The notes: a model not told the origin generated them from the sequence alone. A stretch of DNA of 64,000 bases from a bacterium UBP6_UBA1177 (GCA_002310995.1 DBYV01000035.1:7858-71857); one strand, 5' to 3'. Counted from the stretch's first letter, positions 37,819 through 52,113 are shown. A program made the numbers and translations.

Positions 37819-37967
37819 TTTCCCCTCCGGAAGCAAAAAACCTGCAAAAAATAGCGTTTTTAAGGCTTCGTGTCAACAATAGAACCGCTATTTATTGTTT
37901 TAACTGGACAAAAAGGGCTCTTTTTGTATTATCGCGCGGTTTTATTAAGTTTTTTGGTCAAAGCAAT

Positions 37968-39326
37968 ATGAAAAAGATTGTTCTTTCGGTTTTATCATTG
38001 ATTTTACTGGCATTTTTAGTTTCATGCGAAGATTCCGCCCTGCCCGATCTGCCTGATATGGATGAGTCGATGGATGTCGATGCTTTTGAAATCGGTGACG
38101 AGGATGCAACTCCAGATTACGAATCAAAACCTGATGAGGAAAACGGCGTAAACGATGCAGATAACCAGGAAACTCCTGATTCTGAGAGTCCAGATTCCGA
38201 AAAACCTGACACTGAAACTCCGGATGAAACTCCAGATGAAGAAATTTCTGAACCTGAGATAGCGGCTTCACACCTCATTGTCGCGACTGTAGGCGGCTAC
38301 GATGTCCCGATGAGCGGTCACGTTTACTATGCTAAAGACGAAAACCTCGACACTTTTAAGGAAATTCCGCTTGAAGGCGGAATGGGAAGCTCCGACGGCG
38401 CAGATCTCAACGTCGCGGCTTTTACAGAAGGTTTCGCAGTTGTCGGAAGGCACGATTCTTCTTCACTTTACTTTTTTACGCCCGACTTTGAATTTGAGCA
38501 GGAAATTCAAGTAAAACCGGATACTTACATAAACATGCAGGACATGGTCTATAACCCGTTCAAAGACGAATTCATCGTTTCAGCTCTCAATTTTGACGAT
38601 TTTGACTCGAAAACGACATTTTCCAACAAACTATTCATATTCAAAAAAGATTCGCCGGAAACAGCATCAACCTTGGAAATAAGCGATAACGAGTCGGCAA
38701 GCCCTGCAAAAATGAAGATTGTCGGCAAAAAACTTTTCGTTGCACTGCAGAACCTCGAAAACAACACTTCGGCAAAAGGCGAAATAGCAGTCGTTGATCT
38801 CGAAAATTATTCGGTCGAAAGGATAACTCTTCCCACAACGAACCCGACAGGAAAGATCGAATACAACAAAAATGTCGATAAAAACCACATCTATCTTACG
38901 ACGACCGGTAACTGGAAACAGGGTGACGGCGCACTTCTGCAAGTAAATACGGATACTTACGAAGTTAAGAAAGTCTTAAGCGAATCTGAGGAAGAAAACA
39001 ACATTTTAGACGGCGATTTCGTTGACCTCTCGATTGCCGATAACGGTGATTTTTTCATAATTTTTTCCAACAACATCCTTTACAACGACAACAGCCTTCT
39101 GCTCTACAAACCGAAAGAAGGCAAAATTTCAAAAATAGATTCCAAAATCAACGCATTTGCGGCAAATCCGATCGACTACAGCTCTGTCAGCGGCAAAATT
39201 TACTATTTCGTTGATGAAAAATCGGATACTTACCTTAAATCTTTCGATACGAAGACTAAGGCTGACGAAAAGATCCTTCTTGATTTCGGTCCGGCTGCGT
39301 TAAGAGTGAAATACGACTACAAGTGA
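37968..39326 (+). CDS. lipoprotein with acidic Pro/Asp/Glu linker and beta-propeller-like body, unknown function
   Basis: Signal peptide plus lipobox LVSC, a PDSESPDSEKPDTETPDETPDEE linker, then beta-strand-rich sequence. Confidence 0.45.
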   Translation: MKKIVLSVLSLILLAFLVSCEDSALPDLPDMDESMDVDAFEIGDEDATPDYESKPDEENGVNDADNQETPDSESPDSEKPDTETPDETPDEEISEPEIAASHLIVATVGGYDVPMSGHVYYAKDENLDTFKEIPLEGGMGSSDGADLNVAAFTEGFAVVGRHDSSSLYFFTPDFEFEQEIQVKPDTYINMQDMVYNPFKDEFIVSALNFDDFDSKTTFSNKLFIFKKDSPETASTLEISDNESASPAKMKIVGKKLFVALQNLENNTSAKGEIAVVDLENYSVERITLPTTNPTGKIEYNKNVDKNHIYLTTTGNWKQGDGALLQVNTDTYEVKKVLSESEEENNILDGDFVDLSIADNGDFFIIFSNNILYNDNSLLLYKPKEGKISKIDSKINAFAANPIDYSSVSGKIYYFVDEKSDTYLKSFDTKTKADEKILLDFGPAALRVKYDYK

Positions 39327-39333
39327 GGGATAA

Positions 39334-40908
39334 ATGAAAATTGTAAACGGAAACAATCTGACAATCGAAGATGTGTGCGATGTCGCATATAAAAATGAGC
39401 AGGTCGCACTCCCTGAAGATAAAAAATTCTGGGAAACTTTAGAAAAATCACGGAAATTTCTGGAAGATTACGTAAAAACCGGAGTGCCGGTCTACGGCGT
39501 CACGACCGATTTCGGCGACAGCTGCGATAACCAGATAAGCATTGACAAGGCGGGCGAGCTCCAGCGGACGATCTGCACATATCACGGGATCGGTTTAGGC
39601 CCGAAATTCGACCGCGTCACCGGAAGAGCAGTAGTTCTTGCGCGCCTCAACAGCAACGTAAAAGGCGGTCACTCGGCAATTCGCCCTGAACTTGCCAAAA
39701 TGATGCTCACGCTTCTCAACAAGGACATAATTCCGGTGATCCCGCAGCTCGGTTCGGTCGGTGCTTCGGGAGACTTGACACCTCTCAGCTACCTTGCGGC
39801 AGTCATCATGGGCGAACGCGATGTTTACTACAAAGGAAAAATCGTTCCTGCGGCCGAGGCTATGAAAGCTGAAGGGATAAAACCGCTTCCGATCGAAGCG
39901 AAAGAAGGTCTGGCACTTATGAACGGAACAAGCGTGATGACTGCGGTCGCCTCTCTTGCTTGGAAAAAAGCTGAAAGATTAGCCAGAATTTCAGACTTTT
40001 TAACCGCTGTGACATCTGAAATCACGCAGGGAAAGGACACTCCTTTCGCCGAAAAGGTGAGTGAAATCAAAAATCACCGCGGACAGTGCGATTCCGCAGC
40101 ATATATACGCGAAATCATTAAAGATTCCAAGCGCGTTTTCAGATACGAGGATTTCCTTAAGAATAAAATCGATTCGATCGAAAACAAAGGTTTCATCAAG
40201 CAGCAGAATAAAATCCAGGACAGATACTCCATCCGCTGCGCGCCGCAGATAACTGGCGTTTACCGCGACACTCTGCGCTTTGCAAGAGAGCTGATAACAG
40301 AAGAACTCAATTCCGCAAACGACAATCCCCTTGTCGATATCAGAAGCGGCAGACTTTTCAACACCGGAAACTTCTACGGCGGCCACATCTGCGCTGCATG
40401 CGACTACCTGCGGACGGCTTTGGCAAATATCGCCGATCTTTCCGACAAACAGGCAGAAGTCATAATCGACGGCAAATTCAACGGACTCACCGAAAATCTG
40501 ATCCCCTTTACTCCCGAAAACCATCCGAGAGCGGGACTAAGACTCGGTTTCAAAGCAGTCCAGATAACGATAAGCGCAATCCGCGGCGAAGTTATGACAT
40601 ACTCCTTCCCAGTCAGCATCACAAGTGCGCCGACAGAGGCTCTCAATCAGGACAAAGTTTCGATGGGAACGATCTCCGCTCGCAAACTTGCCGAGCAGAC
40701 CGACCTTGTGTTTTTGCAGTTCGCAGCTCACATTCTCGCCGCAATGCAGGCGGTAGACCTCGCCGGGAAGGAAAATTTTTCATCGTTCACGCGCAGAGTT
40801 CACAACGAAGTCCGCAAGATCAGCCCGTTCGTTGAAGATGACCGCGCTTTGGACAAAGAAGCCGAAGCAGTCGCGGAATGGCTGAAAGAGACTGAGATTT
40901 TCGGATAA
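39334..40908 (+). CDS. aromatic amino acid / histidine ammonia-lyase family enzyme (MIO cofactor)
   Basis: GSVGASGDLTPLS contains the Ala-Ser-Gly MIO-forming triad. NGT, QDRYSIRC and NDNP are conserved blocks of the HAL/PAL/TAL family. Confidence 0.85.
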   Translation: MKIVNGNNLTIEDVCDVAYKNEQVALPEDKKFWETLEKSRKFLEDYVKTGVPVYGVTTDFGDSCDNQISIDKAGELQRTICTYHGIGLGPKFDRVTGRAVVLARLNSNVKGGHSAIRPELAKMMLTLLNKDIIPVIPQLGSVGASGDLTPLSYLAAVIMGERDVYYKGKIVPAAEAMKAEGIKPLPIEAKEGLALMNGTSVMTAVASLAWKKAERLARISDFLTAVTSEITQGKDTPFAEKVSEIKNHRGQCDSAAYIREIIKDSKRVFRYEDFLKNKIDSIENKGFIKQQNKIQDRYSIRCAPQITGVYRDTLRFARELITEELNSANDNPLVDIRSGRLFNTGNFYGGHICAACDYLRTALANIADLSDKQAEVIIDGKFNGLTENLIPFTPENHPRAGLRLGFKAVQITISAIRGEVMTYSFPVSITSAPTEALNQDKVSMGTISARKLAEQTDLVFLQFAAHILAAMQAVDLAGKENFSSFTRRVHNEVRKISPFVEDDRALDKEAEAVAEWLKETEIFG

Positions 40909-41077
40909 AAAACAATGACCATGTCTTGGAAAATCTGCAAACGAAAAAACTAATCTCTGTTCAAAATAAAAGATCTCAAAATAAATTTTCTTGATTTGAT
41001 TTGAAATATTGTGATAATCATATCGTTAAAAATTTGTTTATTGTTATCATAAATGCAGGGTAAAGTTATCATTCATA

Positions 41078-41836
41078 GTGACAATCAACCAAGTTACTAA
41101 AGAGGAAATGTTATTGCTTGATGAATCACGTTCAAGATCACAAATTGTGATCTTGAACGATAAAAAAAGTCGAGGAAGCAATGTTAAATATCTGCCTTAT
41201 GCCTTTACAGAACAAGGGGTAGCGATGCTTGCATCTGTTCTTAAAAGTGATACTGCAGTGCTGACAAGCATCATGATTATAGATGCTTTTGTCGCTTTGA
41301 GGCGGTTTGTGCAGACAAATTCCCAAATTTTTCAAAGACTGGAGTTTATGGAAAAACGGCAGATAACCAGTGAAATTCACTTATTGGAACACGGCAAAAA
41401 AATCGATGAACTTTTCGACAAAATGGACAGCTATAAAATCGAGGACAGGCAGGGAGTCTTCTTCCAAGGTCAGATTTTCGATGCCTACGCAAAATTTGAG
41501 TCTTTTATTACCGAGGCTGAAAAAGAGATTGTTCTGATTGATAACTATGTCGATTTAACGGTTCTGGAACGCTTCGCCAAAAAGAAAAGCGGCGTAAAAG
41601 TCACGATATACACCTATCCCAAAACAAAAATCACACCTCTTGACGTCCAGAAATTCAACGAACAATATCTAGGGCTTGAGCTGAAACACACGGAAAAAAT
41701 CCACGACCGCTTTTTGATTATTGACGGAAAAATCCTTTACCACATCGGGGCATCGCTCAAAGATCTCGCAAAACAGTGCTTCGCTTTCGAAATCATCGAT
41801 TCATCGTGGATTCCAGAAATTATGAGGAATTTGTAA
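41078..41836 (+). CDS. ORF6N-family protein, apparently 5'-truncated
   Basis: GTG start. The sequence begins inside the ORF6N/KilA-N-like domain (..LPYAFTEQGVAMLASVLKSDTAV..IIDAFVALRR) and lacks the usual first ~50 aa. The C-terminal block is IVLIDNYVD...HDRFLIIDGKILYHIGASLKDL. Confidence 0.6.
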   Translation: MTINQVTKEEMLLLDESRSRSQIVILNDKKSRGSNVKYLPYAFTEQGVAMLASVLKSDTAVLTSIMIIDAFVALRRFVQTNSQIFQRLEFMEKRQITSEIHLLEHGKKIDELFDKMDSYKIEDRQGVFFQGQIFDAYAKFESFITEAEKEIVLIDNYVDLTVLERFAKKKSGVKVTIYTYPKTKITPLDVQKFNEQYLGLELKHTEKIHDRFLIIDGKILYHIGASLKDLAKQCFAFEIIDSSWIPEIMRNL

Positions 41837-42170
41837 CCGCCGCACGGCGCACCTTTCTGCCCGCCGTCAGCGACAATAATTTTTTATGTGTGAGAATTTC
41901 GTAAAAAAAGAACGCGAAATTCTTTCCTGAGAAATTTTCGCGAATGAAATCGTTCCTTTCTGCGGAAGAAATTTCAGAATTTCCAGTATGTAGGAAAACA
42001 CTCAACTTTGCGAAAAGAAATATTTTTACCAAGATTTTTCTGAAAAACTTTATTAAATTACAAATACAAATATAATTTTTGGCTTTTTTGAGGTTGTTCA
42101 TGGCTAAAAATCGAAAATATACTTTCAAAGCACGAAACATCTTTAGGCTTTATATTTCAGGGGAATTGAT

Positions 42171-43232
42171 ATGAAGTCGAGAAAAAAACTCAAAGCCTTA
42201 AGACATCAACGAGCGCGAGAAAGAGCTGAAATAAAAAAGCGCAGTCGTTTCCGAAAACGAAAGCGCAACAAAAGACTTTTACAGCGCAAAGCAGATATTA
42301 ATATCAGAAGAGCTATCAAACAAAAACCTAGCATATCCCAAACAGCTCCATCAAATTTTTCTCTAATCGATAATACAGATGAGGTTGTTGCCTATATCAA
42401 TAATTGCAAAAAATTATTACATGAGAAAGAAAAAGTAACAATTGATATTGCTAATATTCAAACCTTGACTTCTGACGCAATAGCTCTTCTGGTCGCGTGC
42501 GCAGATGACCCGCATTTTCGTGGTAAATATGGTGAACTATCAGGAAATGCTCCAAAAGATATAAAACTACTAACTCTATTCATGGAATCAGGTTTCTACA
42601 AATTTGTTAGAGCACACAGGTTTATGAAAACAGCACAAAAAGAAAGAGACAATTTACTTCACAAAGAAAGCAATTTTAAAGTTCAACCAGATATCGCCAG
42701 AGAAGCTTGTCTACATGGCACACAACATCTTTTCAACAATAAAGAACCTATTAATAAAGAACTTATTTCATGCTTGTATGAAATGATAATAGAAGCAATG
42801 TCAAACACCAACAATCATGCTAACAAAGATAAGGAAGGGGGAACAAAATGGTGGTTGTATGCATACAATGATCCTGAAGGAAAAACATGCTATTCTTTTG
42901 TGGATTTAGGTGTTGGAATATTTGAAAGTTTACCTGTTAAGATTTATAAGAAGATAGCTATGAAATTTGGTTTTTCTCACAATGCAGATCTAGTAAATGA
43001 CTTGTTAGAAGGCAAAATCAAGTCAAGCAAAAGAGAAGATAATAATATTAGAGGTAAAGGCATTCCACAAATTGCAAACAACAGCCAAAAAGATATTTTT
43101 AAAAGAGCTTTTATAATTAGTAATGATGTAAAAATTGATCTCAAATCAAGAAGAACAGAGAAATTATCTAATGATTTTCATGGCACATTATTATATTGGG
43201 AATTGACTAAACAAGGAGAGAACAATGGATAA
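42171..43232 (+). CDS. poly-basic N-terminus + STAS-like segment + GHKL (RsbW/SpoIIAB-type) ATPase/kinase domain protein
   Basis: The first ~50 aa are about half K/R. VTIDIANIQTLTSDAIALLVA is a STAS-like strand-helix. GHKL boxes: N-box EAMSNTNNHA, G1 VDLGVGIF, G2 RGKGIP. Confidence 0.5.
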   Translation: MKSRKKLKALRHQRARERAEIKKRSRFRKRKRNKRLLQRKADINIRRAIKQKPSISQTAPSNFSLIDNTDEVVAYINNCKKLLHEKEKVTIDIANIQTLTSDAIALLVACADDPHFRGKYGELSGNAPKDIKLLTLFMESGFYKFVRAHRFMKTAQKERDNLLHKESNFKVQPDIAREACLHGTQHLFNNKEPINKELISCLYEMIIEAMSNTNNHANKDKEGGTKWWLYAYNDPEGKTCYSFVDLGVGIFESLPVKIYKKIAMKFGFSHNADLVNDLLEGKIKSSKREDNNIRGKGIPQIANNSQKDIFKRAFIISNDVKIDLKSRRTEKLSNDFHGTLLYWELTKQGENNG

Positions 43233-43554
43233 GATTTGTATTAACATCAAAAATGATTTTTCAGATTCCCCGGGAGCACGTTACAGAAAAGATGGACCAC
43301 ACTCAGGACAAGAATTTTATGAAGATAAATTAAAACCTAAATTTGATGAAGCTCTTAAGCTGGGATTAAAATTAGAAATTGATTTAGACGGAGTTTGGGG
43401 CTATCCGTCATCTTTTGTATCTGGCTCTTTTGGAAAATTATCGCTAGAATATGGCGCAGACAAAGTATTAAAAAATATTGAGTTCATATCTAAAGACAGT
43501 GAAACTCGCAAATACAGAATTATTGAAGAAATAAAAAATCCAACAATTAAATAA
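43225..43554 (+). CDS. DUF4325 (STAS-like) domain protein
   Basis: 109 aa. LEIDLDGVWGYPSSFVSGSFGKL matches the DUF4325 core pattern (xDFxGVxxxxSSFxxExFG). The start overlaps the upstream stop by 8 nt (ATGGATAA). Confidence 0.55.
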   Translation: MDKICINIKNDFSDSPGARYRKDGPHSGQEFYEDKLKPKFDEALKLGLKLEIDLDGVWGYPSSFVSGSFGKLSLEYGADKVLKNIEFISKDSETRKYRIIEEIKNPTIK

Positions 43555-44166
43555 ATGAGAATTTTTTATATTATAATTGGCATTATTGCCGAAATCCTGT
43601 TCTTCCTAATACTATTTTATAGTACATGGTATTATAGTATTAATATCATCGACTTTTTGATGTTGATTATAACAATAACTATTTCGATAGTTGTTATATA
43701 TCTGACACAAGCTCTTAACAAAAATGATATCATTATAAATATGATAATCGATGACATCAAAGAACTGATTTCACTTTATGAACAAAATTCAAATCTTTTT
43801 CTGGAACTTAAAGAAAATCAATTAAAATTGAAGACAGCTAGAGATAGGGTGAATATGTTGTTTCACAAATCAGACCTTTTAATTGATTGTATAAAAAATG
43901 AGCTTGAAGAATCATTTCCGGGTTTTTTGAAAAAAGAAAACAAAAAAGAAAACAAAAAAGAAGACAAAAAAGAAGAGAAAAACTATATTGCTAAATTAAC
44001 TACTCCATATTATAATTGGGTGACTGGAGGAAAATTGTACGAGGAAAAATTTCGTATCGATTCTGAATTTATAAAAGATCACGAAAATTGTCTTCGCAAG
44101 ACCACTTCATCATTAAAGCTTGTTATTCATGAATTTGTAAGATATACTAAATGGAAAGGATTCTAG
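43555..44166 (+). CDS. two-TM membrane protein with cytoplasmic coiled coil, unknown function
   Basis: The ATG immediately follows the upstream TAA. Two N-terminal hydrophobic helices, helical heptad-like sequence, and the KKENKKENKKEDKKEEK repeat. Confidence 0.45.
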   Translation: MRIFYIIIGIIAEILFFLILFYSTWYYSINIIDFLMLIITITISIVVIYLTQALNKNDIIINMIIDDIKELISLYEQNSNLFLELKENQLKLKTARDRVNMLFHKSDLLIDCIKNELEESFPGFLKKENKKENKKEDKKEEKNYIAKLTTPYYNWVTGGKLYEEKFRIDSEFIKDHENCLRKTTSSLKLVIHEFVRYTKWKGF

Positions 44167-44348
44167 TTTCTCCCAAATACGGAATACAAACGTTAGATAA
44201 TATTAAAAACGGCGAATTATTTTGGGTGCCGAATCGGCAAAAACCCGCAAAAACCTTTTGAATACCTCGACCTTGACAGTGGTTTCGCCGCCGCCGCACA
44301 GCGCACAAAAGCACCTGAATTTAAACTTCAAAAGAGGTCGTAATCAGG

Positions 44349-44376
44349 TTGATTTCCTCACAAAAAACAATATAAT
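44349..44376 (+). promoter_or_regulatory. putative sigma-70 promoter for the methyltransferase operon
   Basis: TTGATT (44349-44354), a 16-nt spacer, then TATAAT (44371-44376), about 40 nt upstream of ATG 44416. Confidence 0.3.
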
Positions 44377-44415
44377 TTCAGGCTTTATTTGGGGATTGCG
44401 GTCTATGGGGTAAAA

Positions 44416-46668
44416 ATGGAAATAAAAATCGAAAATAACAAAATTTTTGCACCTCTGAAAAACAAATGGCTCGTCTATAAACCGGAAGAGGAAGTTAGAC
44501 AAAAGTATATATGCCGCTTGGTTGATAGTTACGGCTACTCTCTTGAACAAATGGCGCAAGAGCTGCAAGTTACAAATTCACAGCGTGGACTGGGGGCAGC
44601 AAGAGCTGATATTGTAATTTGGCGTAACAAAGAAACAAATAAATATCCTTTGATTGTTGTAGAATGCAAAGCTGAATCCGTTACAATTCATAAAGAAGAC
44701 TATTATCAGGGAATGAACTATGCTTCATGGGCTCATGCGAACTTTTTTGTAACAACAAACTTGAAAGAAACTCGTATTTTCAAGATTGTTGAAGGCGAAA
44801 TCCCGAACAAGCTTGAAGAAGTTGTTGATATTCCGGATGCGGCGAAAGCCAACGATCAAAAAGAAATTGATAAATTATTGAAGCAAACAAAGGCTTTTAC
44901 TCGTGATGAGTTTTCGAAACTGCTTTTCAAGTGTCACAATATCATTCGTAACAACGATAAACTTTCGCCTGAAGCTGCTTTTGATGAAATCAGCAAGATA
45001 CTGTTCATCAAGATTAGGTTTGAGCGTGATAATAGCGGAAATCAAATTTTCTCACTGAATACGTTCAAGAAAGACAAGGAAAGCTACGAAAGATACAAAC
45101 CTAAAGGCGGAGAAGATTTTTATCAGTTTTTATTTACTCAGACTAAACAACAGTTTGCCAATGACCATCTGTTTGATGACAATGCCAAAATTGAGATTCG
45201 TGAAAACAGCTTTGAGCAGATTGTTAAGGAATTGGAGATATATAATCTTTCTACAACTTCAGACGATGTAAAAGGAATCGCTTTTGAAAAATTCTTGGGG
45301 AAAACATTCCGTGGTGAGTTGGGGCAGTTCTTTACCCCGCGAACAATTGTTGATTTTATGGTTTCCATCCTTGATCCGCAGGAAGGCGAATATATATGTG
45401 ACCCGTGCTGCGGAAGCGGCGGCTTTTTGATTAAAGCATTTGAATATGTTCGAGAAAAAATAGAAAAAGATGTCGAAGCGCAAAAGGAATTAATAAAGCA
45501 GAAATACTACGGTGAAGATTACGAAAAGCTGTCCGAAGCCAAAAAACAAAAAATTGAAGATACTGTAGCAAAAGCATTCGCCTACATGAATGAAGAGCTG
45601 AATCTCAATAATGAGAAAGGGCGGTTGCGCACGCTGTCATTTGATTGCATTTACGGCACAGATGCCAATCCGCGAATGGCTCGAACTGCAAAAATGAATA
45701 TGATCATGCACGGAGACGGTCACGGCGGCGTTCATCACCACGACGGACTTTTGAATGTAAACGGAATTTTTGAAAACCGTTTCGATATTATTCTCACGAA
45801 TCCGCCCTTCGGTTCAAGAGTTGAGAAAGATTTGAAAATATCAGAAGCTGACAGATTTACCGATCAGGAAAGAATTAATGCCTATATAGAAAGATACGGT
45901 GATGCTTACAGAGAAGCGTTAAAACAGGTAAATGACAACATCGGAAAACCGCTTCTGAGTCTTTATAAAATAGACAACGGATTAACTGAGGTGCTCTTTA
46001 TTGAGCGTTGTCTGAATTTGCTAAAACCAGGCGGAAGAATGGGAATTGTTCTCCCGGAAGGTGTTTTGAACAACTCTAATCTTCAAAAAGTGCGCGAATT
46101 TGTTGAAAGCAAAGCTAAAATTTTGCTGATTGTTTCCATTCCGCAGGATGTTTTCATTGCTTCTGGCGCAACGGTAAAACCAAGTCTTTTGTTCTTCAAA
46201 AAATTCACTCAGAAAGAAGCAGAAGAATATGAGAAAATAAGAAAAGAAGCTGAAAAAACTGTTGAATTAAAATACGCAGATGAATTAACATCTATCGAAG
46301 AACAACTCTCCAAACGAGGGAAAGAAGCTTTACCAAAAGAACAAAAGAAAGAATTGAATGCAAAGAAAAAACAGATTCTGGAAAAGAAGCAAGACGAAAT
46401 TAAGGCAGAAATAAAAGAGCATTTTGACTATGAAATACCGATTGCCGAAGTAAAAAAAGCAGGTATCAGCACAACCGGTGCGGCCATTGAAAACGAACTT
46501 ATTCCATTGGCAGATGAATTTGCGCCATACAGAAAAGAGATGAAATTGTGGGAAAAACCAGAGAAAGAAACACAATATAAATCTGACGATAATGGTTTCG
46601 TTTATCGCATAAGGATAGCCAACCAAATTGTTGCTGAACCAGAAATTTTTTACGGACAGAAAAAATAG
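44416..46668 (+). CDS. hsdM: N6-adenine DNA methyltransferase (HsdM-like, gamma class) fused to N-terminal PD-(D/E)xK HsdR_N-type domain
   Basis: The N-terminus has ARADIVIW...PLIVVECKAES...FFVTTN, an HsdR_N-type nuclease-fold motif. The MTase has the AdoMet motif DPCCGSGGFL and the catalytic LTNPPFG. A Lys/Glu coiled coil lies near the C-terminus. The ORF-track start 44389 is also possible. Confidence 0.85.
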   Translation: MEIKIENNKIFAPLKNKWLVYKPEEEVRQKYICRLVDSYGYSLEQMAQELQVTNSQRGLGAARADIVIWRNKETNKYPLIVVECKAESVTIHKEDYYQGMNYASWAHANFFVTTNLKETRIFKIVEGEIPNKLEEVVDIPDAAKANDQKEIDKLLKQTKAFTRDEFSKLLFKCHNIIRNNDKLSPEAAFDEISKILFIKIRFERDNSGNQIFSLNTFKKDKESYERYKPKGGEDFYQFLFTQTKQQFANDHLFDDNAKIEIRENSFEQIVKELEIYNLSTTSDDVKGIAFEKFLGKTFRGELGQFFTPRTIVDFMVSILDPQEGEYICDPCCGSGGFLIKAFEYVREKIEKDVEAQKELIKQKYYGEDYEKLSEAKKQKIEDTVAKAFAYMNEELNLNNEKGRLRTLSFDCIYGTDANPRMARTAKMNMIMHGDGHGGVHHHDGLLNVNGIFENRFDIILTNPPFGSRVEKDLKISEADRFTDQERINAYIERYGDAYREALKQVNDNIGKPLLSLYKIDNGLTEVLFIERCLNLLKPGGRMGIVLPEGVLNNSNLQKVREFVESKAKILLIVSIPQDVFIASGATVKPSLLFFKKFTQKEAEEYEKIRKEAEKTVELKYADELTSIEEQLSKRGKEALPKEQKKELNAKKKQILEKKQDEIKAEIKEHFDYEIPIAEVKKAGISTTGAAIENELIPLADEFAPYRKEMKLWEKPEKETQYKSDDNGFVYRIRIANQIVAEPEIFYGQKK

Positions 46669-46674
46669 ACAACC

Positions 46675-47985
46675 ATGCAACAAAAAACACACACATATTT
46701 AAGATTCGTAAGATACAAAGATCTCAACCTATGGGATGTTAAACGCTTTTGGGGCGATTTAGATTTGCTATTTTCAAGCTCCGTTAGATTAAAAGATATC
46801 TTATCACCACACTTTGAACCAGTATCTAAAGAAGAAATGTTGAATAAACAGTGGCATATTATATCCAAAATCAACTTTGCTGGAAAATTGTTTTTAAGAG
46901 ATGTTTCGGAGGCTAAAACATTTAAGGGGAATTTAAATAAAATCGATTCCAACACACTGATCTATTCCAAAATAAATGTTAAACACGGATGTATATACTT
47001 CCATCCAGACAATGCTGAACCGTTTGGCGTAAGTTCTGAATATCCTGCTTACAAGATAGACGCATCAAAAGTAAGTGGAGCATATTTGGTAAAAGTCATA
47101 CAAAGCCAATATTTTAAAACCCTTTTAAACCAAAAAACTAGCGGAATATCAAAAGCAAGAGTTAAACCATACGAATTTCTTGATATAAAAATTCCGCTCC
47201 CATCTCTTTCAGAACAGCAAGCATTGATAAAAGCATACAATGATAAAATCCAGCAAGCTGAAACTTTGGAAAAACAAGCTGAACAAATTGGAAAAGATAT
47301 TGATGCTTACTTAAATGATGAATTGGGAATATCTCAATCTGAGAGTTCTGACGAACAAAATATAGTTAATGAATATAAATTCTTGCGATTCGTTAATTTT
47401 AAATATTTAAGAGAATGGGGATTCAACAAAATAATAAATCACAAAAAGAACCTATCGTGTCTTAACAATGATGCCAACGGCTATAAAACGACGCAATTAT
47501 CTGATATTATTAGTTTAAAAAGTGGCCTCTTTTTACCTAAAGACAAACAAAACGGAACCCTTTACGATGTTTATGGCGGTAATGGTATCACGGGAACTCA
47601 CAATGAATATTGTTTCTCTGGGAAAAGAGTGGTCATTGGACGAGTTGGAGAATATTGCGGAAATATACATTTAGTTGATGGAAATTATTGGGTAACAGAC
47701 AATGCTCTTATAGTTGACCAAAAAAGTGATAATATAACTTGGGAATACTTGGCGATAGCACTAAAATTACTAAATTTAAATCAATATAAAAATATTTCTG
47801 CTCAACCTGTAATATCCCAAAAGAAAATTTTGGTACTATCAATTCCACTCCCATCAATTGATATCCAAAATGTAATTGTAAAACACATAAACAAACAGAA
47901 AGAACAGATCAAGCAATTAAAACAACAAGCAGAGAATCTGAAAAAAGAAGCTTTGGAAAAATTTGAAAAGGAGATATTTGAGTAA
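46675..47985 (+). CDS. hsdS: restriction-modification specificity subunit (HsdS-like, two TRDs)
   Basis: Two variable halves are each followed by the conserved helix: IPLPSLSEQQALIKAYNDKIQQAE and IPLPSIDIQNVIVKHINKQKEQIKQLK. Confidence 0.85.
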   Translation: MQQKTHTYLRFVRYKDLNLWDVKRFWGDLDLLFSSSVRLKDILSPHFEPVSKEEMLNKQWHIISKINFAGKLFLRDVSEAKTFKGNLNKIDSNTLIYSKINVKHGCIYFHPDNAEPFGVSSEYPAYKIDASKVSGAYLVKVIQSQYFKTLLNQKTSGISKARVKPYEFLDIKIPLPSLSEQQALIKAYNDKIQQAETLEKQAEQIGKDIDAYLNDELGISQSESSDEQNIVNEYKFLRFVNFKYLREWGFNKIINHKKNLSCLNNDANGYKTTQLSDIISLKSGLFLPKDKQNGTLYDVYGGNGITGTHNEYCFSGKRVVIGRVGEYCGNIHLVDGNYWVTDNALIVDQKSDNITWEYLAIALKLLNLNQYKNISAQPVISQKKILVLSIPLPSIDIQNVIVKHINKQKEQIKQLKQQAENLKKEALEKFEKEIFE

Positions 47986-47987
47986 TT

Positions 47988-49745
47988 ATGAGAATAAAGT
48001 CGTTATACATAGAGGATTACAAAAATATAAAAAAACAGACTTTCGATTTTTCTGAATCAGATGGATATATTGCGTTAATAGGTCTCAATGGCTCTGGAAA
48101 AAGCAATTTATTAGAGGCTATAGGGTTGATTTTTAAAGGTTTTTTTAACAATGAAAAGATACCTTTTGTATTTGAGTTGCAATATAATCACGAAGGAAAG
48201 GAGTATATTCGTAAACCAAGAAGTGCTAAGATTGATAATGTTAAGGTCAAATCTTCTGACATGTTCAACCCGTCCTCTGTCATTGCATGTTATAGTGGTG
48301 AAGATTTTAGGTTGTGGAATTTAGTGTTTGAAGATTATTATATGCACTATTTTAATCAAGCAATAAAAGGCCTCTCGTTTTCTCCTAAATTAATGTATGT
48401 AAACAAGTATTGTTGGAAAATAGCTTTTATAGCATTGTTTTGTTCTTATAAGAAATCAACAAGTGATTTTTTAGAAAAATGCTTGCATATTACAGATTTA
48501 ACTTCTATTAATTGCCATTTTGATATAGATGCCTTGAAAAAAGAAAAATTTAAAGAAAATCAATCCCTTAAGTGGTTTAATAGAATAGAAGAACTGCAAA
48601 ATGAAAATACTAATAAAATAATTAATGCCAACACAATAAAAACTATAGACATGTCTATTTATGGCGTTACAGATTCCCAAGATAATAGTAAATACATATT
48701 CCAGTTTCTTTATTTATTATCAATCCCTGAAAAGAATTCTGAAAAGGGACAAACTATAGATAAACTTATAACCGATATCGAAATTGATATTAATGGAGTT
48801 AATTTCGACTATTTGAGTGAAGGCGAAAAGAAAATGATACTGATTACATGTATCACACAAATACTTGGCGATGAAAATTCGCTTGTATTACTTGACGAAC
48901 CTGACGCTCATGTTCATATTGCAAGAAAGAAGGAGTTATTAACAGCTATTGAATCTTTTGAAAGTCAAGCAATACTAACCACCCATTCCCCTATATTCGT
49001 CAATGAAATATATAAACGAAACAAAAATAATTTATTTTTTCTGGAAAACGGCTCCCTCAGTAACCCTGATTATATCAATAAATTAATACAACTTTCATCT
49101 GGTGAAATTGATTTCTTAAACGGATCTATTCTATTAAGTTCTAAAAAGATTCTTGTAACAGAAGGACCTTACGACAAAAGATATATAGAAAAAGCAATAG
49201 CTGTTCTCCAAGCCGAAGATTCACGATACAAAGAGTTTAGCCACATTGTCATAATTCCAAGCGGTGGTGCTGGTGAGAATTCAAAAACATTTTATGAACA
49301 GGTACTTCAACCACAAATCGATAAATATGATAAAATAGTATTCTTGTTCGATTATGACGGCGATGGATACACAGGATGGGAAAAAATACGCGATTTACAA
49401 ACAGCAAAGCTAACATCTATATTTTATCAAGACAACTATGATCCTGAAAAGACTAAAAAACCCGAACAAAAAGATACAATTATGCTTGAAGATTTGTTTC
49501 CAGAGGAATCATATAAAACCATCATCGACACAATTCATGAATGTAAAACACATAAAGATTTCAGAAATATAAGGTTAAAATTTGAAGATAAAGATGAAAA
49601 TAAAAAAAATAAAAATAAAAACCAAACCTTGGCGGATAGAATAAAACATCACATACAAAACAACTATAATGATTTTAAAAAGGAGTGGTTTAAAGGTTTT
49701 AAGCCGGTACTGGATAAGCTATTAGAAGTTTTTGATTTGGAATAA
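47988..49745 (+). CDS. OLD-family nuclease-like protein (ABC-type ATPase + TOPRIM)
   Basis: Walker A GLNGSGKSNLLEAIG, LSEGEKKM, Walker B LVLLDEPDAHVH and H-loop TTHSP. C-terminal TOPRIM-like ILVTEGPYDKRYIE and FLFDYDGDG. Confidence 0.7.
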   Translation: MRIKSLYIEDYKNIKKQTFDFSESDGYIALIGLNGSGKSNLLEAIGLIFKGFFNNEKIPFVFELQYNHEGKEYIRKPRSAKIDNVKVKSSDMFNPSSVIACYSGEDFRLWNLVFEDYYMHYFNQAIKGLSFSPKLMYVNKYCWKIAFIALFCSYKKSTSDFLEKCLHITDLTSINCHFDIDALKKEKFKENQSLKWFNRIEELQNENTNKIINANTIKTIDMSIYGVTDSQDNSKYIFQFLYLLSIPEKNSEKGQTIDKLITDIEIDINGVNFDYLSEGEKKMILITCITQILGDENSLVLLDEPDAHVHIARKKELLTAIESFESQAILTTHSPIFVNEIYKRNKNNLFFLENGSLSNPDYINKLIQLSSGEIDFLNGSILLSSKKILVTEGPYDKRYIEKAIAVLQAEDSRYKEFSHIVIIPSGGAGENSKTFYEQVLQPQIDKYDKIVFLFDYDGDGYTGWEKIRDLQTAKLTSIFYQDNYDPEKTKKPEQKDTIMLEDLFPEESYKTIIDTIHECKTHKDFRNIRLKFEDKDENKKNKNKNQTLADRIKHHIQNNYNDFKKEWFKGFKPVLDKLLEVFDLE

Positions 49746-49750
49746 ATATC

Positions 49751-50578
49751 ATGGGCAAGACAATAACAACATATCTGATTGACGGAGATCCGAAAGGAAC
49801 TCAGTATGTTTTCATCAGCAACAAGATTTGCCAGATGTACATAATCCCGCGTTCTAATCTGGCGATTTTGAATGAGCGGTCTGAGCTGTGGACTCCGGCA
49901 TTTTACATCCTGCTTGGTGAGGATGAGGCAACCAAACCCAAAGCCTATATCGGTGAAACTGAAAATTTTCGTGAACGAGTGAAAGACCACGACAGCAAGA
50001 AAGAGTTTTGGCAAAAAGCTCTGATTTTCATCGCAAAAGATGCCGCAATGACAAAATCCGACGTGCAATACCTTGAGCACAAAGCCATCAAAGAGGCAAA
50101 AATTTCAAATACTTTTGTGCTGAATGAAAACAAACAGACGCCGAAAGCCCCCAATCTTCCTGAATACAGAAAAGATGATATGGACGGATTTTTTGAAGAT
50201 GTGAAATTCCTGACATCTTTCATCGGATGCAACATATTTGACGTGGTTAAACCGAAAGAAAAACATTTGTTTTACACAAAAGGGCGCGGTTGCGAGGCTA
50301 AAGGTTTCTACGATGCCAAAGGTTTTACCGTTTTAAAAGGAAGCATCATCGCAAAGTCATCGGCTCCGTCGTTGACATGGAAGGAAAAACGCGAAAATCT
50401 GGTTAAAGAATACACTTTCGTGAACGGCGATAAATTGGAACTGGAATCTGATAAAACCTTCTCCAGCCCGAGCAGTGCTGCCGATTTCTGCCTCGGAAGC
50501 AGTAGCAACGGCTGGTTAGTCTGGAAAGACAAAGACGGTCAAACATTAGATTCAGTCTACAGAAAACAGTTGGGATAA
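49751..50578 (+). CDS. GIY-YIG nuclease-like protein with C-terminal DUF4357
   Basis: FYILLGE...AYIGETENFRERVKDHD is GIY-YIG-like. The C-terminal FSSPSSAADFCLGSSSNGWLVWKDKDG matches the DUF4357 pattern. Confidence 0.65.
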   Translation: MGKTITTYLIDGDPKGTQYVFISNKICQMYIIPRSNLAILNERSELWTPAFYILLGEDEATKPKAYIGETENFRERVKDHDSKKEFWQKALIFIAKDAAMTKSDVQYLEHKAIKEAKISNTFVLNENKQTPKAPNLPEYRKDDMDGFFEDVKFLTSFIGCNIFDVVKPKEKHLFYTKGRGCEAKGFYDAKGFTVLKGSIIAKSSAPSLTWKEKRENLVKEYTFVNGDKLELESDKTFSSPSSAADFCLGSSSNGWLVWKDKDGQTLDSVYRKQLG

Positions 50579-50634
50579 ATAATTATGTTGATGTCCCTCA
50601 CGATGAAAATGAAACCAACCGATAAGGAGTCCAA

Positions 50635-51606
50635 ATGAGTTACAGACCACCGTTTGAAATCACGGCGAAAGCGATAAATCTTATTTCGGAGATTTCGGCG
50701 CAGCTTGAGCGTTTTTCCATCGCGATGGAGCAGGGCGACAGCGTGCAGCTCCGCAAAATTAATCGCATGAAAACTATTCACGGTACTTTGGCGATAGAAG
50801 GGAACTCTCTTTCCGAAGAGCAGGTAACGGCTTTAATTGAAGGAAAGCATGTGATCGCGCCGCTGCGTGAGGTTCAGGAAGTGCGGAATGCGATTCTGGC
50901 TTACGGGCAGTTTATGAAATTCGATCCTTACAATGAGGATGATCTGCTCAAAGCACACGGTATTTTTGCTTTGGGACTCGTGGACAACCCGGGACATTTC
51001 AGAAAAGGCGGAGTCTGCGTCATGGGCAAGGACGGAATCAGCCATGTTGCGCCTCCGGCACACCGGGTTCCTTTTTTGATTTCCGACCTGTTTGACTGGG
51101 TAAAAAAATCGGAAGATCACATTCTGATAAAAAGCAGCGTTTTTCACTATGAGTTTGAATTTATTCATCCGTTTCCTGATGGTAACGGCAGAATGGGACG
51201 TTTCTGGCAGTCAAGGCTCCTTGCAGAGTGGAATCCGGTGTTTGAGTATATTCCGGTTGAGAACATGATCCGCGAAAATCAGGCTGATTATTACAAGGCG
51301 ATCGAGCGCAGTACTGATGAAAATGATTCAGGAATTTTTGCAGAATTCATGTTGCAGACAATTCTTGATACAATAAAAAAGCATAAGAAAAAGGTGACTG
51401 CAAAAGTGACTGTAAAGGTGACTGCAAATCAGCAGAAAATTATTTCTGCAATAAACGAAAACCCGTATATTACGCAGGAAGAGCTTTCAAAGAAAGTCGG
51501 AATTGCCGTAAAAAATATTAAGGAAAATATGAAAAAGTTGCAGGAACAGGGCATTATCCGCCGCATCGGCGCAGACAAAAACGGTCACTGGGAAATAGTG
51601 AAATAA
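50635..51606 (+). CDS. Fic-family protein with C-terminal winged-helix domain
   Basis: Canonical Fic motif HPFPDGNGRMGR. C-terminal QQKIISAINENPYITQEELSKKVGIAVKNIKENMKKLQEQGIIRR is a wHTH. Confidence 0.9.
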   Translation: MSYRPPFEITAKAINLISEISAQLERFSIAMEQGDSVQLRKINRMKTIHGTLAIEGNSLSEEQVTALIEGKHVIAPLREVQEVRNAILAYGQFMKFDPYNEDDLLKAHGIFALGLVDNPGHFRKGGVCVMGKDGISHVAPPAHRVPFLISDLFDWVKKSEDHILIKSSVFHYEFEFIHPFPDGNGRMGRFWQSRLLAEWNPVFEYIPVENMIRENQADYYKAIERSTDENDSGIFAEFMLQTILDTIKKHKKKVTAKVTVKVTANQQKIISAINENPYITQEELSKKVGIAVKNIKENMKKLQEQGIIRRIGADKNGHWEIVK

Positions 51607-51630
51607 AAAACGTGCGATAAGGAGGCAGAC

Positions 51631-52113
51631 ATGGGAAAAACACTGGTGATTTACTTTTCGGCTGGCGGTCACACAAAATTGAAAGCTGTCCAGCTTGCTG
51701 AGGCAGTCGGAGCCGATATTTTCGAGATCGAGCCGGTGAAAAAGTACACGAAGGCCGATCTTCTGTGGATGAATCCGCTTTCAAGGAGTTTCCGCGAAGT
51801 GGCAACACGCAAAAGCAAACGCCCCGAAATCGTCGATAAAGAGCTTGATTTAACAAGTTACGACAAGATTTTTCTCGGTTTCCCAATCTGGGGCTGGGCA
51901 GCACCGTCAATCGTCAACGCTTTTTTGGAAAAGCACGATTTTTCGGGCAAAACTATCGTCGTTTTCGCGACAAGCGGCGGCACGATGAAGCTCGACGGAA
52001 GCGTAAAATCGCTCACTCCTTCGCTTTCTGAAACCACAGTTGTAAAAGAAGGAAAAGTTCTCAACGGAGAATGGACAAAAGAAGCGCTTGCCGAATGGGC
52101 GAAAGATCTTTAA
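51631..52113 (+). CDS. flavodoxin-like protein
   Basis: 160 aa. TLVIYFSAGGHT is an FMN phosphate-binding loop, and FLGFPIWGW is a typical short-chain flavodoxin pattern. Confidence 0.75.
   Translation: MGKTLVIYFSAGGHTKLKAVQLAEAVGADIFEIEPVKKYTKADLLWMNPLSRSFREVATRKSKRPEIVDKELDLTSYDKIFLGFPIWGWAAPSIVNAFLEKHDFSGKTIVVFATSGGTMKLDGSVKSLTPSLSETTVVKEGKVLNGEWTKEALAEWAKDL

What the first reader, a model, noticed from the sequence alone, without database searches (positions are those of the whole stretch)
44416..50578. HsdR-less methyltransferase/specificity operon tightly packed with OLD-family and GIY-YIG/DUF4357 nucleases
Four genes are separated by only 6, 2 and 5 nt, so they most likely form one operon:
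- An HsdM-like MTase (NPPFG, DPCCGSGG) carrying an N-terminal PD-(D/E)xK HsdR_N-type domain with an intact-looking D...ExK (ADIVIW...VVECK).
- A two-TRD HsdS.
- An ABC-ATPase+TOPRIM OLD-family protein.
- A GIY-YIG/DUF4357 protein.

No SF2 motor subunit (HsdR) is present anywhere in the island. Two readings are possible. In the first, this is a BcgI-like type IIB arrangement in which the nuclease is fused to the MTase and S is separate. In the second, an M+S methylation module marks self while restriction is delegated to the OLD and/or GIY-YIG proteins, making a composite methylation-linked defence system. In either case this is not a canonical type I system.
Basis: partly seen in the sequence, partly recalled or inferred. 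Interest (0 to 1): 0.65.

Follow-up and report, generated by a model that had tools for sequence, protein, structure and literature searches.

The report
Motor-less restriction enzyme with linked OLD nuclease
A small defence island in a rumen/gut Bacteroidales genome carries a restriction-modification enzyme whose DNA-cutting domain is built into the methylase, so it needs no HsdR motor; it shares an operon with an OLD-type ATPase-nuclease that almost always accompanies such enzymes, and with a free-standing GIY-YIG nuclease that is only a frequent neighbour.

Summary
Four co-oriented genes (44416-50578) are separated by 6, 2 and 5 nt, carry the stated motifs, and no HsdR or ResIII helicase lies on this contig.

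**Genes 1 and 2** look like a Type IIB-like (BsaXI/BcgI architecture) nuclease-methylase plus a two-TRD S subunit.
- The N-terminal domain aligns to the BsaXI endonuclease domain with all four catalytic residues kept.
- Those residues are conserved in distant relatives.

**Gene 3** is a true OLD-family ABC-ATPase-TOPRIM protein, and its link to this M/S family is specific.
- 53 of 67 M/S loci have an ABC-ATPase nuclease downstream: OLD-type or Septu-like PtuA+PtuB.
- All 7 contexts sampled from the OLD side lie directly behind such an M/S.
- The ATPase is swapped like a cassette (median 27% identity, against 69% for the methylase).
- This M-S-OLD core is shared with MADS, but MAD6-8 are absent.
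- Whether OLD guards the R-M enzyme or acts as its co-effector is unresolved.

**Gene 4** (GIY-YIG/DUF4357, PADLOC PDC-S14) is independent cargo. It also sits in a canonical HsdR-containing type I locus and stands alone elsewhere.

This is a new variant of known kinds and of moderate interest.

The parts
44416..46668 (+). RM subunit (750 aa): an N-terminal HsdR-type PD-(D/E)xK nuclease domain (about aa 1-140), a helical connector, a gamma-class N6-adenine methyltransferase, and a C-terminal helical hairpin with a small beta domain.
   Evidence: - Pfam HSDR_N_2 and N6_Mtase.
- PADLOC PDLC03018 at 1275 bits over the full length.
- The best PDB fold match is the BsaXI RM subunit, E=2.2e-16 over 853 columns.
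44485..44721 (+). Nuclease catalytic core: E24/E25, E49, D65 (ADIVIW), E83-x-K85 (VVECK) and Q98xxxY102.
   Evidence: - Intact in 76 of 78 close relatives.
- D65 is kept in 59 of 61, E83 in 52 of 61 and K85 in 54 of 61 representatives that share 33-60% identity.
- These residues align to the BsaXI catalytic residues E73, D90, E105 and K107 (PMC11997821).
45400..45810 (+). Methyltransferase motif I (DPCCGSGG, aa 329-336) through motif IV (NPPF, aa 462-465).
   Evidence: Located by pattern search. The residues of both motifs are invariant or nearly invariant (>=90%) across the 78 sequences.
46675..47985 (+). Specificity subunit S (436 aa) with two target-recognition domains.
   Evidence: - Pfam Methylase_S covers 269-420.
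- PADLOC Specificity_I models cover 6-251 and 269-425.
- Only the conserved regions share DNA similarity with the same-genus locus L005, which indicates swapped TRDs.
47988..49745 (+). OLD-family protein (585 aa): an ABC ATPase (Walker A G32-S39, Walker B/D-loop D303-D306, H333) followed by a C-terminal TOPRIM domain (E392, D455-x-D457).
   Evidence: - Pfam, PADLOC and NCBIfam ATPase hits.
- The AF2 model has pLDDT 86.8.
- Foldseek finds retron-Eco8 OLD, PtuA and AriA.
- TOPRIM is supported.
49751..50578 (+). GIY-YIG nuclease (aa 52-115) fused to DUF4357/RAMA (aa 214-266). This is PADLOC candidate PDC-S14 and is independent cargo.
   Evidence: - Domain hits.
- Its contexts elsewhere are a canonical type I locus, an M-S-ABC locus, and a stand-alone arrangement of an HTH gene, a 65-aa ORF, the GIY-YIG gene and RhuM.
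50635..51606 (+). Fic plus winged-HTH protein (SoFic-like), a further cargo gene of the island.
   Evidence: - Pfam Fic and HTH_24; PADLOC SoFic E=1e-43.
- Absent from the same site in L005.
42171..44166 (+). Three upstream island genes: a 353-aa GHKL-like ATPase (weak evidence), a 109-aa DUF4325 (STAS-like) protein, and a 203-aa protein of unknown family.
   Evidence: - Pfam DUF4325.
- A weak match of the 353-aa protein to HATPase_c-DUF4325 proteins (E=0.013; the aligned segments read EAMSNTNNHA / EVMDNVLIHS and DLGVGI / DYGIGI).

Best explanation
The operon joins separable defence modules.

**(1) Genes 1 and 2: a motor-less restriction-modification enzyme of Type IIB-like build.**
- One polypeptide carries an HsdR-type PD-(D/E)xK nuclease domain, a helical connector and a gamma-class m6A methyltransferase.
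- It pairs with a separate two-TRD S subunit, by analogy an (RM)2S complex.
- S reads a bipartite site. The methylase marks host DNA, and the built-in nuclease cuts unmodified sites. No HsdR is needed.
- This step is inferred from homology. Neither cleavage nor the recognition motif has been shown.

**(2) Gene 3: an OLD-family ABC-ATPase-TOPRIM nuclease.**
- It belongs to a clade encoded almost exclusively just downstream of this M/S family, and it is translationally close-packed with S.
- It is a specific partner module. It can be exchanged for other OLD alleles or for Septu-like PtuA+PtuB(HNH).
- Most likely it is a second layer coupled to the RM.S complex, in one of two ways:
  - a guardian that fires when the R-M enzyme is inhibited (the PrrC/PARIS logic), or
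  - an ATP-dependent co-effector (as MAD3-MAD4 are in MADS).
- My split is roughly 55:45 in favour of the guardian role.

**(3) Gene 4: GIY-YIG/DUF4357.** It is an independent, probably type IV-like, nuclease that rides in R-M islands.
For: **RM.S**
- BsaXI RM is the best fold match over the full length, E=2.2e-16. HsdM subunits score 1e-8 over the methylase part only.
- The N-terminal profile hits the BsaXI nuclease domain (E=1.5e-7), then BpuSI and an HsdR. Catalytic residues are aligned.
- The motif is conserved.
- S follows M in 67 of 67 loci.
- M/S pairs without any ABC ATPase exist: 14 of 67 loci, plus a paralogue on contig C57 of the same genome. This argues that the pair is self-sufficient.

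**OLD link**
- 53 of 67 loci have the ABC ATPase within 4 genes downstream, and 48 have it directly after S.
- The S-to-ABC gap has a median of 2 nt and is at most 30 nt in 50 of 51 loci.
- All 7 contexts of OLD homologues lie behind this M family.

**Cassette behaviour**
- ATPase median identity is 27% against 69% for the methylase; Mantel r=0.19.
- There is no DNA similarity over OLD between the window and the same site in a same-genus genome.
- 21 loci carry PtuA+PtuB instead.

**Precedents from the literature**
- Guardian systems PrrC and PARIS: PMC12707154.
- MADS: bioRxiv 10.1101/2023.03.30.534895 and PMC13662399.

**GIY-YIG independence**.
Against: - No biochemistry exists for this clade. 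Type IIB-style double-sided cleavage is untested.
- In MADS, a MAD2 methylase of the same superfamily does not suffice. MAD3/4 and MAD6-8 are all required, so the built-in nuclease may not be the main effector.
- Three relatives with a degenerate PD-ExK motif (L069, L074, L095) all keep OLD genes. This hints that OLD can carry the restriction function.
- GIY-YIG/DUF4357 co-occurs in 5 of 7 OLD-sampled loci.
- DUF4357 is fused to the OLD C-terminus in 3 loci. A looser functional tie between OLD and GIY-YIG cannot be excluded.
- The MTase AF2 model is only moderate (pLDDT 74.6).
Confidence: 0.55

Rival explanations
1. Minimal MADS-like system. M+S only recognise and methylate. Unmethylated sites are attacked by the OLD ATPase-TOPRIM, recruited or licensed by the RM.S complex. 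The PD-ExK domain is auxiliary or regulatory. OLD functionally replaces HsdR.
For: - In MADS, mad3 and mad4 (OLD-like) are essential for defence. mad5 (S) could only be deleted together with mad2 or mad3 (PMC13662399).
- The window methylase matches the MAD2 model over its N-terminal half, nuclease domain included (298 bits).
- The whole superfamily scores 130-540 bits against that model.
- The OLD clade sits behind this M family in 7 of 7 contexts.
- Nuclease-dead relatives keep OLD genes. L095 has ExK changed to VxN and carries two tandem OLDs.
Against: - The catalytic tetrad is intact in 76 of 78 close relatives and in 51 of 61 distant ones, so it is under selection.
- 21% of loci, and the C57 paralogue, have M/S with no ABC ATPase.
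- OLD is freely exchanged for unrelated alleles and for PtuAB with an HNH nuclease, and it co-evolves only weakly with M.
- MAD6-8, which are mandatory in MADS, are absent.
Confidence: 0.25
2. Mere neighbours. A type IIB-like R-M, a class-1-like stand-alone OLD and PDC-S14 are three autonomous systems. They share a promoter only because defence genes pile up in islands.
For: - P2 Old and Septu work alone (PMC10568477).
- The slot after S also holds RhuM, Fic, GHKL-DUF4325 and DRT-like genes.
- OLD alleles are swapped.
Against: - 79% occupancy by one ATPase family.
- All 7 reverse-sampled contexts lie behind this M family and none lie elsewhere.
- Spacers of 2 nt with no separate promoter signal above the shuffled expectation.
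Confidence: 0.15
3. A canonical type I M2S1 methylase that borrows an HsdR encoded elsewhere in the genome.
For: - Two hsdR genes exist, on contigs C38 and C10.
- Sources annotate the family as 'type I restriction enzyme M protein'.
- The genome is only 84% complete.
Against: - Each hsdR sits beside its own M/S.
- This M lacks HsdM_N and instead carries the HsdR nuclease domain.
- None of 80 relatives has a co-oriented HsdR.
- BsaXI fits far better than HsdM.
Confidence: 0.03

Closest known systems
Type IIB restriction-modification enzymes of the RM + S kind (BsaXI, PDB 8w0p; BcgI)
   Same: - An N-terminal PD-(D/E)xK nuclease is fused to a gamma-class m6A methylase, with a separate two-TRD S subunit and no ATPase motor.
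- The catalytic E...D...ExK residues align.
   Different: - Sequence identity is only about 19%, and the protein is 750 aa against 916 aa.
- Whether the BsaXI 'knob' and 'paddle' domains are present was not established.
- The nuclease domain carries the HsdR-like QxxxY motif.
- The enzyme is almost always followed by an ABC-ATPase nuclease.
- Double-sided cleavage is untested.
MADS (methylation-associated defence system, Pseudomonas aeruginosa SMC4386)
   Same: - A MAD2-type methylase of the same superfamily, an S subunit (MAD5), and an OLD-like ATPase plus TOPRIM (MAD3-MAD4) in one operon.
- Self/non-self discrimination is methylation-based.
   Different: - There is no MAD1, MAD6, MAD7 or MAD8.
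- OLD is one fused protein rather than a split pair.
- All scores fall far below the NCBIfam equivalog cut-offs: 298 vs 720, 30 vs 420 and 27 vs 400.
R-M guardian modules: PrrC within EcoPrrI, and PARIS (AriA/AriB)
   Same: - An ABC-type ATPase coupled to a nuclease.
- It is encoded within or next to an R-M operon, and its sequence is highly variable.
   Different: - PrrC is an anticodon nuclease in an HsdR-containing type IC locus.
- PARIS is a split AriA+AriB pair, usually found in satellite hotspots.
- No trigger is known for the OLD protein here.
Septu (PtuA/PtuB) and class 1 OLD nucleases
   Same: - The best PADLOC model for the ATPase is a PtuA model (PDLC00293).
- 21 related loci carry PtuA+PtuB(HNH) in the same slot.
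- The domain order matches P2 Old and Thermus scotoductus OLD (TsOLD).
   Different: - Class 1 OLD is defined as a lone gene, and Septu as a two-gene unit.
- Here the module is operon-fused to an M/S pair.
PADLOC PDC-S14 (GIY-YIG + DUF4357)
   Same: A full-length match of 275 bits.
   Different: Nothing notable. It is an uncharacterised candidate single-gene system.

Membership tests
Type IIB R-M (RM + S subclass) | Nuclease and methyltransferase in one polypeptide | tested here: met
   HSDR_N_2 plus N6_Mtase in one 750-aa ORF. Fold match to BsaXI RM over the full length.
Type IIB R-M (RM + S subclass) | Conserved catalytic E...D...ExK in the nuclease domain | tested here: met
   E49/D65/E83/K85 align to BsaXI E73/D90/E105/K107. 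Conserved in relatives.
Type IIB R-M (RM + S subclass) | Separate S subunit with two TRDs | tested here: met
   S is adjacent in 67 of 67 loci.
Type IIB R-M (RM + S subclass) | [quoted passage not shown] | not testable with these tools
   Needs purified enzyme.
Type IIB R-M (RM + S subclass) | BsaXI-type knob and paddle domains | not tested
   The AF2 model shows a C-terminal helical hairpin (aa 599-669) and a beta domain. It was not mapped onto the BsaXI domains.
Type I R-M | HsdR (SF2 translocase-nuclease) subunit partnered with M and S | tested here: not met
   No TIGR00348 or ResIII hit on the contig. The HsdR genes elsewhere have their own M/S. No co-oriented HsdR in 80 loci.
Type I R-M | HsdM with an HsdM_N domain | tested here: not met
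   No PF12161 hit. The C38 and C10 methylases do have it.
MADS | MAD6, MAD7 and MAD8 present (mandatory in the authors' MacSyFinder model) | tested here: not met
   - No mad6-8 hits among the island proteins.
- The genome search gave only generic hits on other contigs or far from the island.
- For mad7 nothing matched in the genome, but nothing matched in any control genome either, so the genome-wide search is uninformative.
MADS | MAD2, MAD3 and MAD5 at equivalog level | tested here: not met
   298 vs 720, 30 vs 420 and 27 vs 400 bits.
OLD family nucleases | N-terminal ABC ATPase with Walker A/B, signature motif and H-loop | tested here: met
   Invariant G32, N34, G37, K38, S39; S277-E278-G279; D303-D306; H333. 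Pfam hits.
OLD family nucleases | C-terminal TOPRIM with a conserved Glu and a DxD motif | tested here: met
   E392 is invariant; D455 and D457 are nearly invariant (>=90%). OLD-like_TOPRIM in 16 of 32 orthologues. Profile hits to the retron Ec67 protein and the T7 primase/helicase. Eco8 OLD fold match.
OLD class 2 (Gabija) / class 3 (retron) | Adjacent UvrD-like helicase (GajB), or reverse transcriptase plus ncRNA | tested here: not met
   The neighbours are S and GIY-YIG. No ResIII-type (SF2) helicase on the contig. A UvrD-family model was not searched for.
PADLOC PDC-S14 | Full-length match to the PDC-S14 HMMs | tested here: met
   PDLC04925, E=1.4e-82, residues 2-270.

The most novel reading that the evidence does not exclude
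The M-S-ABC triad may be an obligate three-component, ATP-dependent restriction system, a 'minimal MADS'.
- The RM.S complex finds unmethylated bipartite sites and licenses an interchangeable ABC-ATPase nuclease (OLD/TOPRIM or PtuAB/HNH) to destroy the DNA.
- An ABC ATPase would thus take the place of the SF2 HsdR motor.
- Given thousands of clusters in Bacteroidota and beyond, this would be a large restriction-enzyme class that annotation pipelines currently file as 'type I M protein' plus 'AAA ATPase'.
Probability: 0.25. Interest if true: 0.75.

Novelty: new variant of a known kind. Interest (0 to 1): 0.5.

Why it matters
- The methylase family is very large: more than 8000 clusters at 90% identity, and 866 clusters at 50% identity with E<=1e-30. 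It is routinely annotated as a type I M subunit. If it is in fact a self-contained restriction enzyme, R-M inventories for Bacteroidota, including gut and rumen Prevotella, are wrong in kind.
- The near-constant, cassette-like ABC-ATPase nuclease behind it gives a clean natural system for a specific question: do OLD and Septu modules act as guardians of an R-M enzyme or as its ATP-driven effector? That would link MADS, PARIS/PrrC and Type IIB enzymes.
- It also matters for the genetic tractability of these bacteria.

Tried and rejected
1. **Split ATPase plus TOPRIM, like MAD3/MAD4.** I supposed that the roughly 200-aa gene following the shorter ATPases in relatives was a split TOPRIM. Rejected: it is a PtuB-type HNH nuclease (PADLOC 120-180 bits).
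2. **HsdR acting in trans.** Rejected.
3. **GIY-YIG as an obligate partner.** Rejected after sampling its contexts.
4. **PADLOC scan of the isolated TOPRIM region.** No hit. Pfam on the window copy alone scores below the cut-off (E=0.0083). The TOPRIM call therefore rests on orthologue profiles and the fold.
5. **Phylum-wide unbiased census with the genome search.** It returned only 39 genomes. Five have the methylase, all in one genus. This shows patchiness but is not a census.
7. **Krishnan et al. [quoted passage not shown] It is not held, so prior description at the comparative-genomics level could not be checked.
8. **Promoter and terminator scan.** No signal above the shuffled expectation.

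Full report
**What is there.** The window holds a low-GC stretch from about 42000 to 50600, with GC 0.31-0.38 against about 0.43 elsewhere. Within it, four + strand ORFs lie at 44416-46668, 46675-47985, 47988-49745 and 49751-50578, separated by 6, 2 and 5 nt.
- Gene 1 has Pfam HSDR_N_2 (aa 32-149 of the TTG ORF) and N6_Mtase. It carries ADIVIW...VVECK, DPCCGSGG and NPPFG.
- Gene 2 has two TRD-bearing halves.
- Gene 3 is an ABC ATPase.
- Gene 4 is GIY-YIG plus DUF4357/RAMA and matches PADLOC PDC-S14 over its full length.
- No HsdR (TIGR00348) or ResIII helicase maps to the window's contig.

**The methylase is a nuclease-methylase of BsaXI-like build.**
- The AF2 model (78-sequence alignment, pLDDT 74.6) finds the Type IIB BsaXI RM subunit as its best PDB match. 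That match scores E=2.2e-16 and is aligned over 853 columns. Type I HsdM subunits follow at 1e-8 and cover only the methylase part.
- I built a profile of the N-terminal domain from 26 relatives sharing only 19-39% identity. It hits three PDB chains: the BsaXI endonuclease domain (E=1.5e-7), the type IIG BpuSI nuclease domain (6e-4) and a type I HsdR (5e-3).
- In the BsaXI alignment, the mutagenesis-proven residues E73, D90, E105 and K107 (PMC11997821) correspond to E49, D65, E83 and K85 here.
- These residues, together with E24/E25 and a QxxxY motif (Q98, Y102), are intact in 76 of 78 relatives of at least 65% identity.
- D...(E/D)xK is intact in 51 of 61 representatives sharing 33-60% identity. 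The would-be refuter 'residues degenerate in alignments' therefore fails.
- The family is very large: more than 8000 clusters at E<=1e-20 and 866 50%-identity clusters at E<=1e-30. Sources name it 'N-6 DNA methylase' or 'type I restriction enzyme M protein'.

**No HsdR partner.**
- The genome (84% complete) has two hsdR genes. One is on C38 in the order M(HsdM_N)-S-unknown-R. The other is on C10 as R plus an M.S fusion. Each is clearly paired with its own M/S.
- Among 80 related genome loci, only one has an HsdR-like gene nearby, and it lies on the opposite strand.
- The same genome carries a second, distant (27% identity) HSDR_N_2-methylase plus S on C57. It is followed by a RhuM/Fic fusion and no ATPase.

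**Gene 3 is a genuine OLD-family protein.**
- Across 33 orthologues, the Walker A, signature, Walker B/D-loop and H-loop residues are invariant. So is E392. D455 and D457 are nearly invariant, at 90% or more.
- Pfam OLD-like_TOPRIM hits 16 of 32 orthologous C-termini. The window copy reaches only Toprim E=0.0083.
- A profile of the C-terminal domain hits the retron Ec67 protein, in the part that the same profile aligns to the T7 primase/helicase.
- The AF2 model (pLDDT 86.8) matches full-length retron-Eco8 OLD, PtuA and AriA.

**The link between M/S and the ABC ATPase.** I called ORFs in the 80 loci and clustered them. The counts below refer to the 67 loci (the window included) that have at least 3.8 kb downstream.
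- S follows M in 67 of 67.
- One ATPase family follows within four genes in 53 (79%), and directly after S in 48.
- Of those 53, 31 are fused ATPase-TOPRIM (OLD type). Another 21 are a shorter ATPase followed by a roughly 200-aa protein. That protein turned out to be PtuB-type HNH, not TOPRIM, so these loci are Septu-like.
- The S-to-ATPase spacer has a median of 2 nt and is at most 30 nt in 50 of 51 loci.
- Sampling from the other side, seven OLD homologues (47-57% identity) were looked up in public assemblies. All seven lie directly behind an M/S of this family.
- Six of the seven have the HSDR_N_2 domain. The seventh (L095) is a 42%-identical M.S fusion whose ExK has decayed to VxN, and it is followed by two tandem OLD genes.

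**The ATPase nevertheless behaves as a cassette.**
- Its median pairwise identity is 27%, against 69% for the methylase, and the two are only weakly correlated (Mantel r=0.19).
- A same-genus genome has the island at the same chromosomal site, between an ammonia-lyase gene and a flavodoxin gene. DNA similarity there covers the flanks, the methylase (76%), the conserved regions of S and the GIY-YIG gene (89%). It does not cover the TRDs, OLD, the upstream genes or Fic.

**Gene 4 is not an obligate partner.**
- GIY-YIG/DUF4357 occurs in 10 of the 80 loci, behind varying middle genes.
- Close homologues (81-89% identity) are found in three kinds of context:
  - at the end of a canonical type I locus, in the order HsdR-S-S-AAA_13-HsdM-AbiH-GIY-Schlafen, in a complete Prevotella genome;
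  - in M-S-ABC-GIY in a Treponema MAG;
  - in 23 contigs as an HTH gene, a 65-aa ORF, the GIY-YIG gene and RhuM, with no R-M at all.
- DUF4357 is also fused to GmrSD and McrB-type type IV enzymes (PMC4619093, PMC11090510). In eight related loci a GmrSD gene occupies the corresponding slot. I therefore read gene 4 as an autonomous, probably type IV-like, nuclease.
- Two observations keep a looser tie open. It appears in 5 of the 7 OLD-sampled loci. DUF4357 is also fused to the C-terminus of OLD in three loci.

**Relation to MADS.**
- NCBIfam's MAD2 model matches the N-terminal half of the methylase, nuclease domain included, at 298 bits (cut-off 720). It matches ten other members of the superfamily at 130-540 bits. 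MAD2 therefore belongs to this superfamily.
- MADS also contains an S subunit (MAD5) and a split OLD-like pair (MAD3/MAD4). That pair is required for defence and forms an active ATPase-nuclease.
- MAD6-8, which the authors treat as mandatory, are absent from the island. The genome-wide mad7 search matched nothing in the control genomes either, so for mad7 only the island scan counts. The locus is therefore not MADS, but it shares the M-S-OLD core.

**Mechanism.**
- Shown by sequence and fold: an intact nuclease-methylase with its S subunit; an intact ATPase-TOPRIM; tight operon packing; and specific, bidirectional genomic linkage with cassette exchange.
- Inferred: that RM.S restricts on its own in the Type IIB manner.
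  - For: conservation of the catalytic residues, and the existence of M/S pairs without any ATPase.
  - Against: the MADS precedent, and the nuclease-dead variants that keep OLD.
- Inferred: that OLD is coupled to RM.S, either as a guardian in the PrrC/PARIS sense (PMC12707154) or as a co-effector. The extreme divergence and swapping of the ATPase are what one expects of a sensor in an arms race, so I lean to the guardian role. The data do not decide between the two.

**Novelty.**
- Type IIB enzymes, MADS, Septu, OLD and PDC-S14 are all known.
- The compact RM.S + OLD/PtuAB unit was not returned as a named system by the PADLOC models I searched, and the papers I read do not describe it. The clade has no biochemistry.
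- Earlier notes of this scan reached similar readings on other genomes. I treated them as leads and re-derived the points here.
- Verdict: a new variant of known kinds, of moderate interest.

Noticed in passing
window 42171-44166: Three upstream island genes: a 353-aa protein, a 109-aa DUF4325 (STAS-like) protein and a 203-aa protein of unknown family. The 353-aa protein weakly matches HATPase_c-DUF4325 proteins; the aligned segments read EAMSNTNNHA / EVMDNVLIHS and DLGVGI / DYGIGI (E=0.013). In relatives L013, L017 and L020, a fused HATPase_c-DUF4325 gene (419-435 aa; partial PADLOC DrmA hit) sits after S in place of OLD. This pair may be a split version of that gene.
   Followed up: partly
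own genome contig C57 (L107:3162-7990, - strand): A second, distant (27% identity) HSDR_N_2-methylase with an intact D...ExK, followed by S (463 aa) and a RhuM/Fic fusion (312 aa). No ABC ATPase is present.
   Followed up: partly
own genome contigs C38 (L003:8517-16030) and C10 (L004:3062-7788): Two canonical type I systems. The first runs M(HsdM_N)-S-355-aa unknown-HsdR (1045 aa). The second is HsdR (804 aa, EcoEI_R_C) plus an M.S fusion (771 aa).
   Followed up: partly
L068:4687-6747, L072:13613-15649, L074:8135-10267: OLD proteins of 678-710 aa carry a C-terminal DUF4357 domain. This is the same domain that is fused to GIY-YIG in the window.
   Followed up: partly
L095:1910-7716: A 788-aa M.S fusion, 42% identical to the window methylase, has a decayed nuclease motif (VECK changed to IVCN). 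It is followed by two tandem OLD-type genes (568 and 571 aa), and no HsdR gene was called in the locus held (6 kb either side of the OLD gene looked up).
   Followed up: partly
window 37902-40910 and 51591-52105 vs L005: The island occupies the same site, between an ammonia-lyase gene and a flavodoxin gene, in a same-genus genome. The GIY-YIG gene (89% nt identity) is more similar than the flanking core genes (81-83%) and the methylase (76%). OLD, the TRDs, the upstream genes and Fic share no DNA similarity. Only 4 of 14 other same-genus genomes carry the methylase.
   Followed up: partly
window 41078-41836 and 50635-51606: Two further cargo genes flank the core. One is an ORF6N-domain protein that matches PADLOC PDC-S05 (267 bits). 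The other is a Fic plus winged-HTH protein (SoFic-like).
   Followed up: no
L059:15367-17849 and 7 other loci: A gene for a protein of about 130 aa with no family hit, plus a 693-aa GmrSD type IV restriction gene, recurs directly after OLD. This is the slot that holds GIY-YIG/DUF4357 in the window.
   Followed up: no
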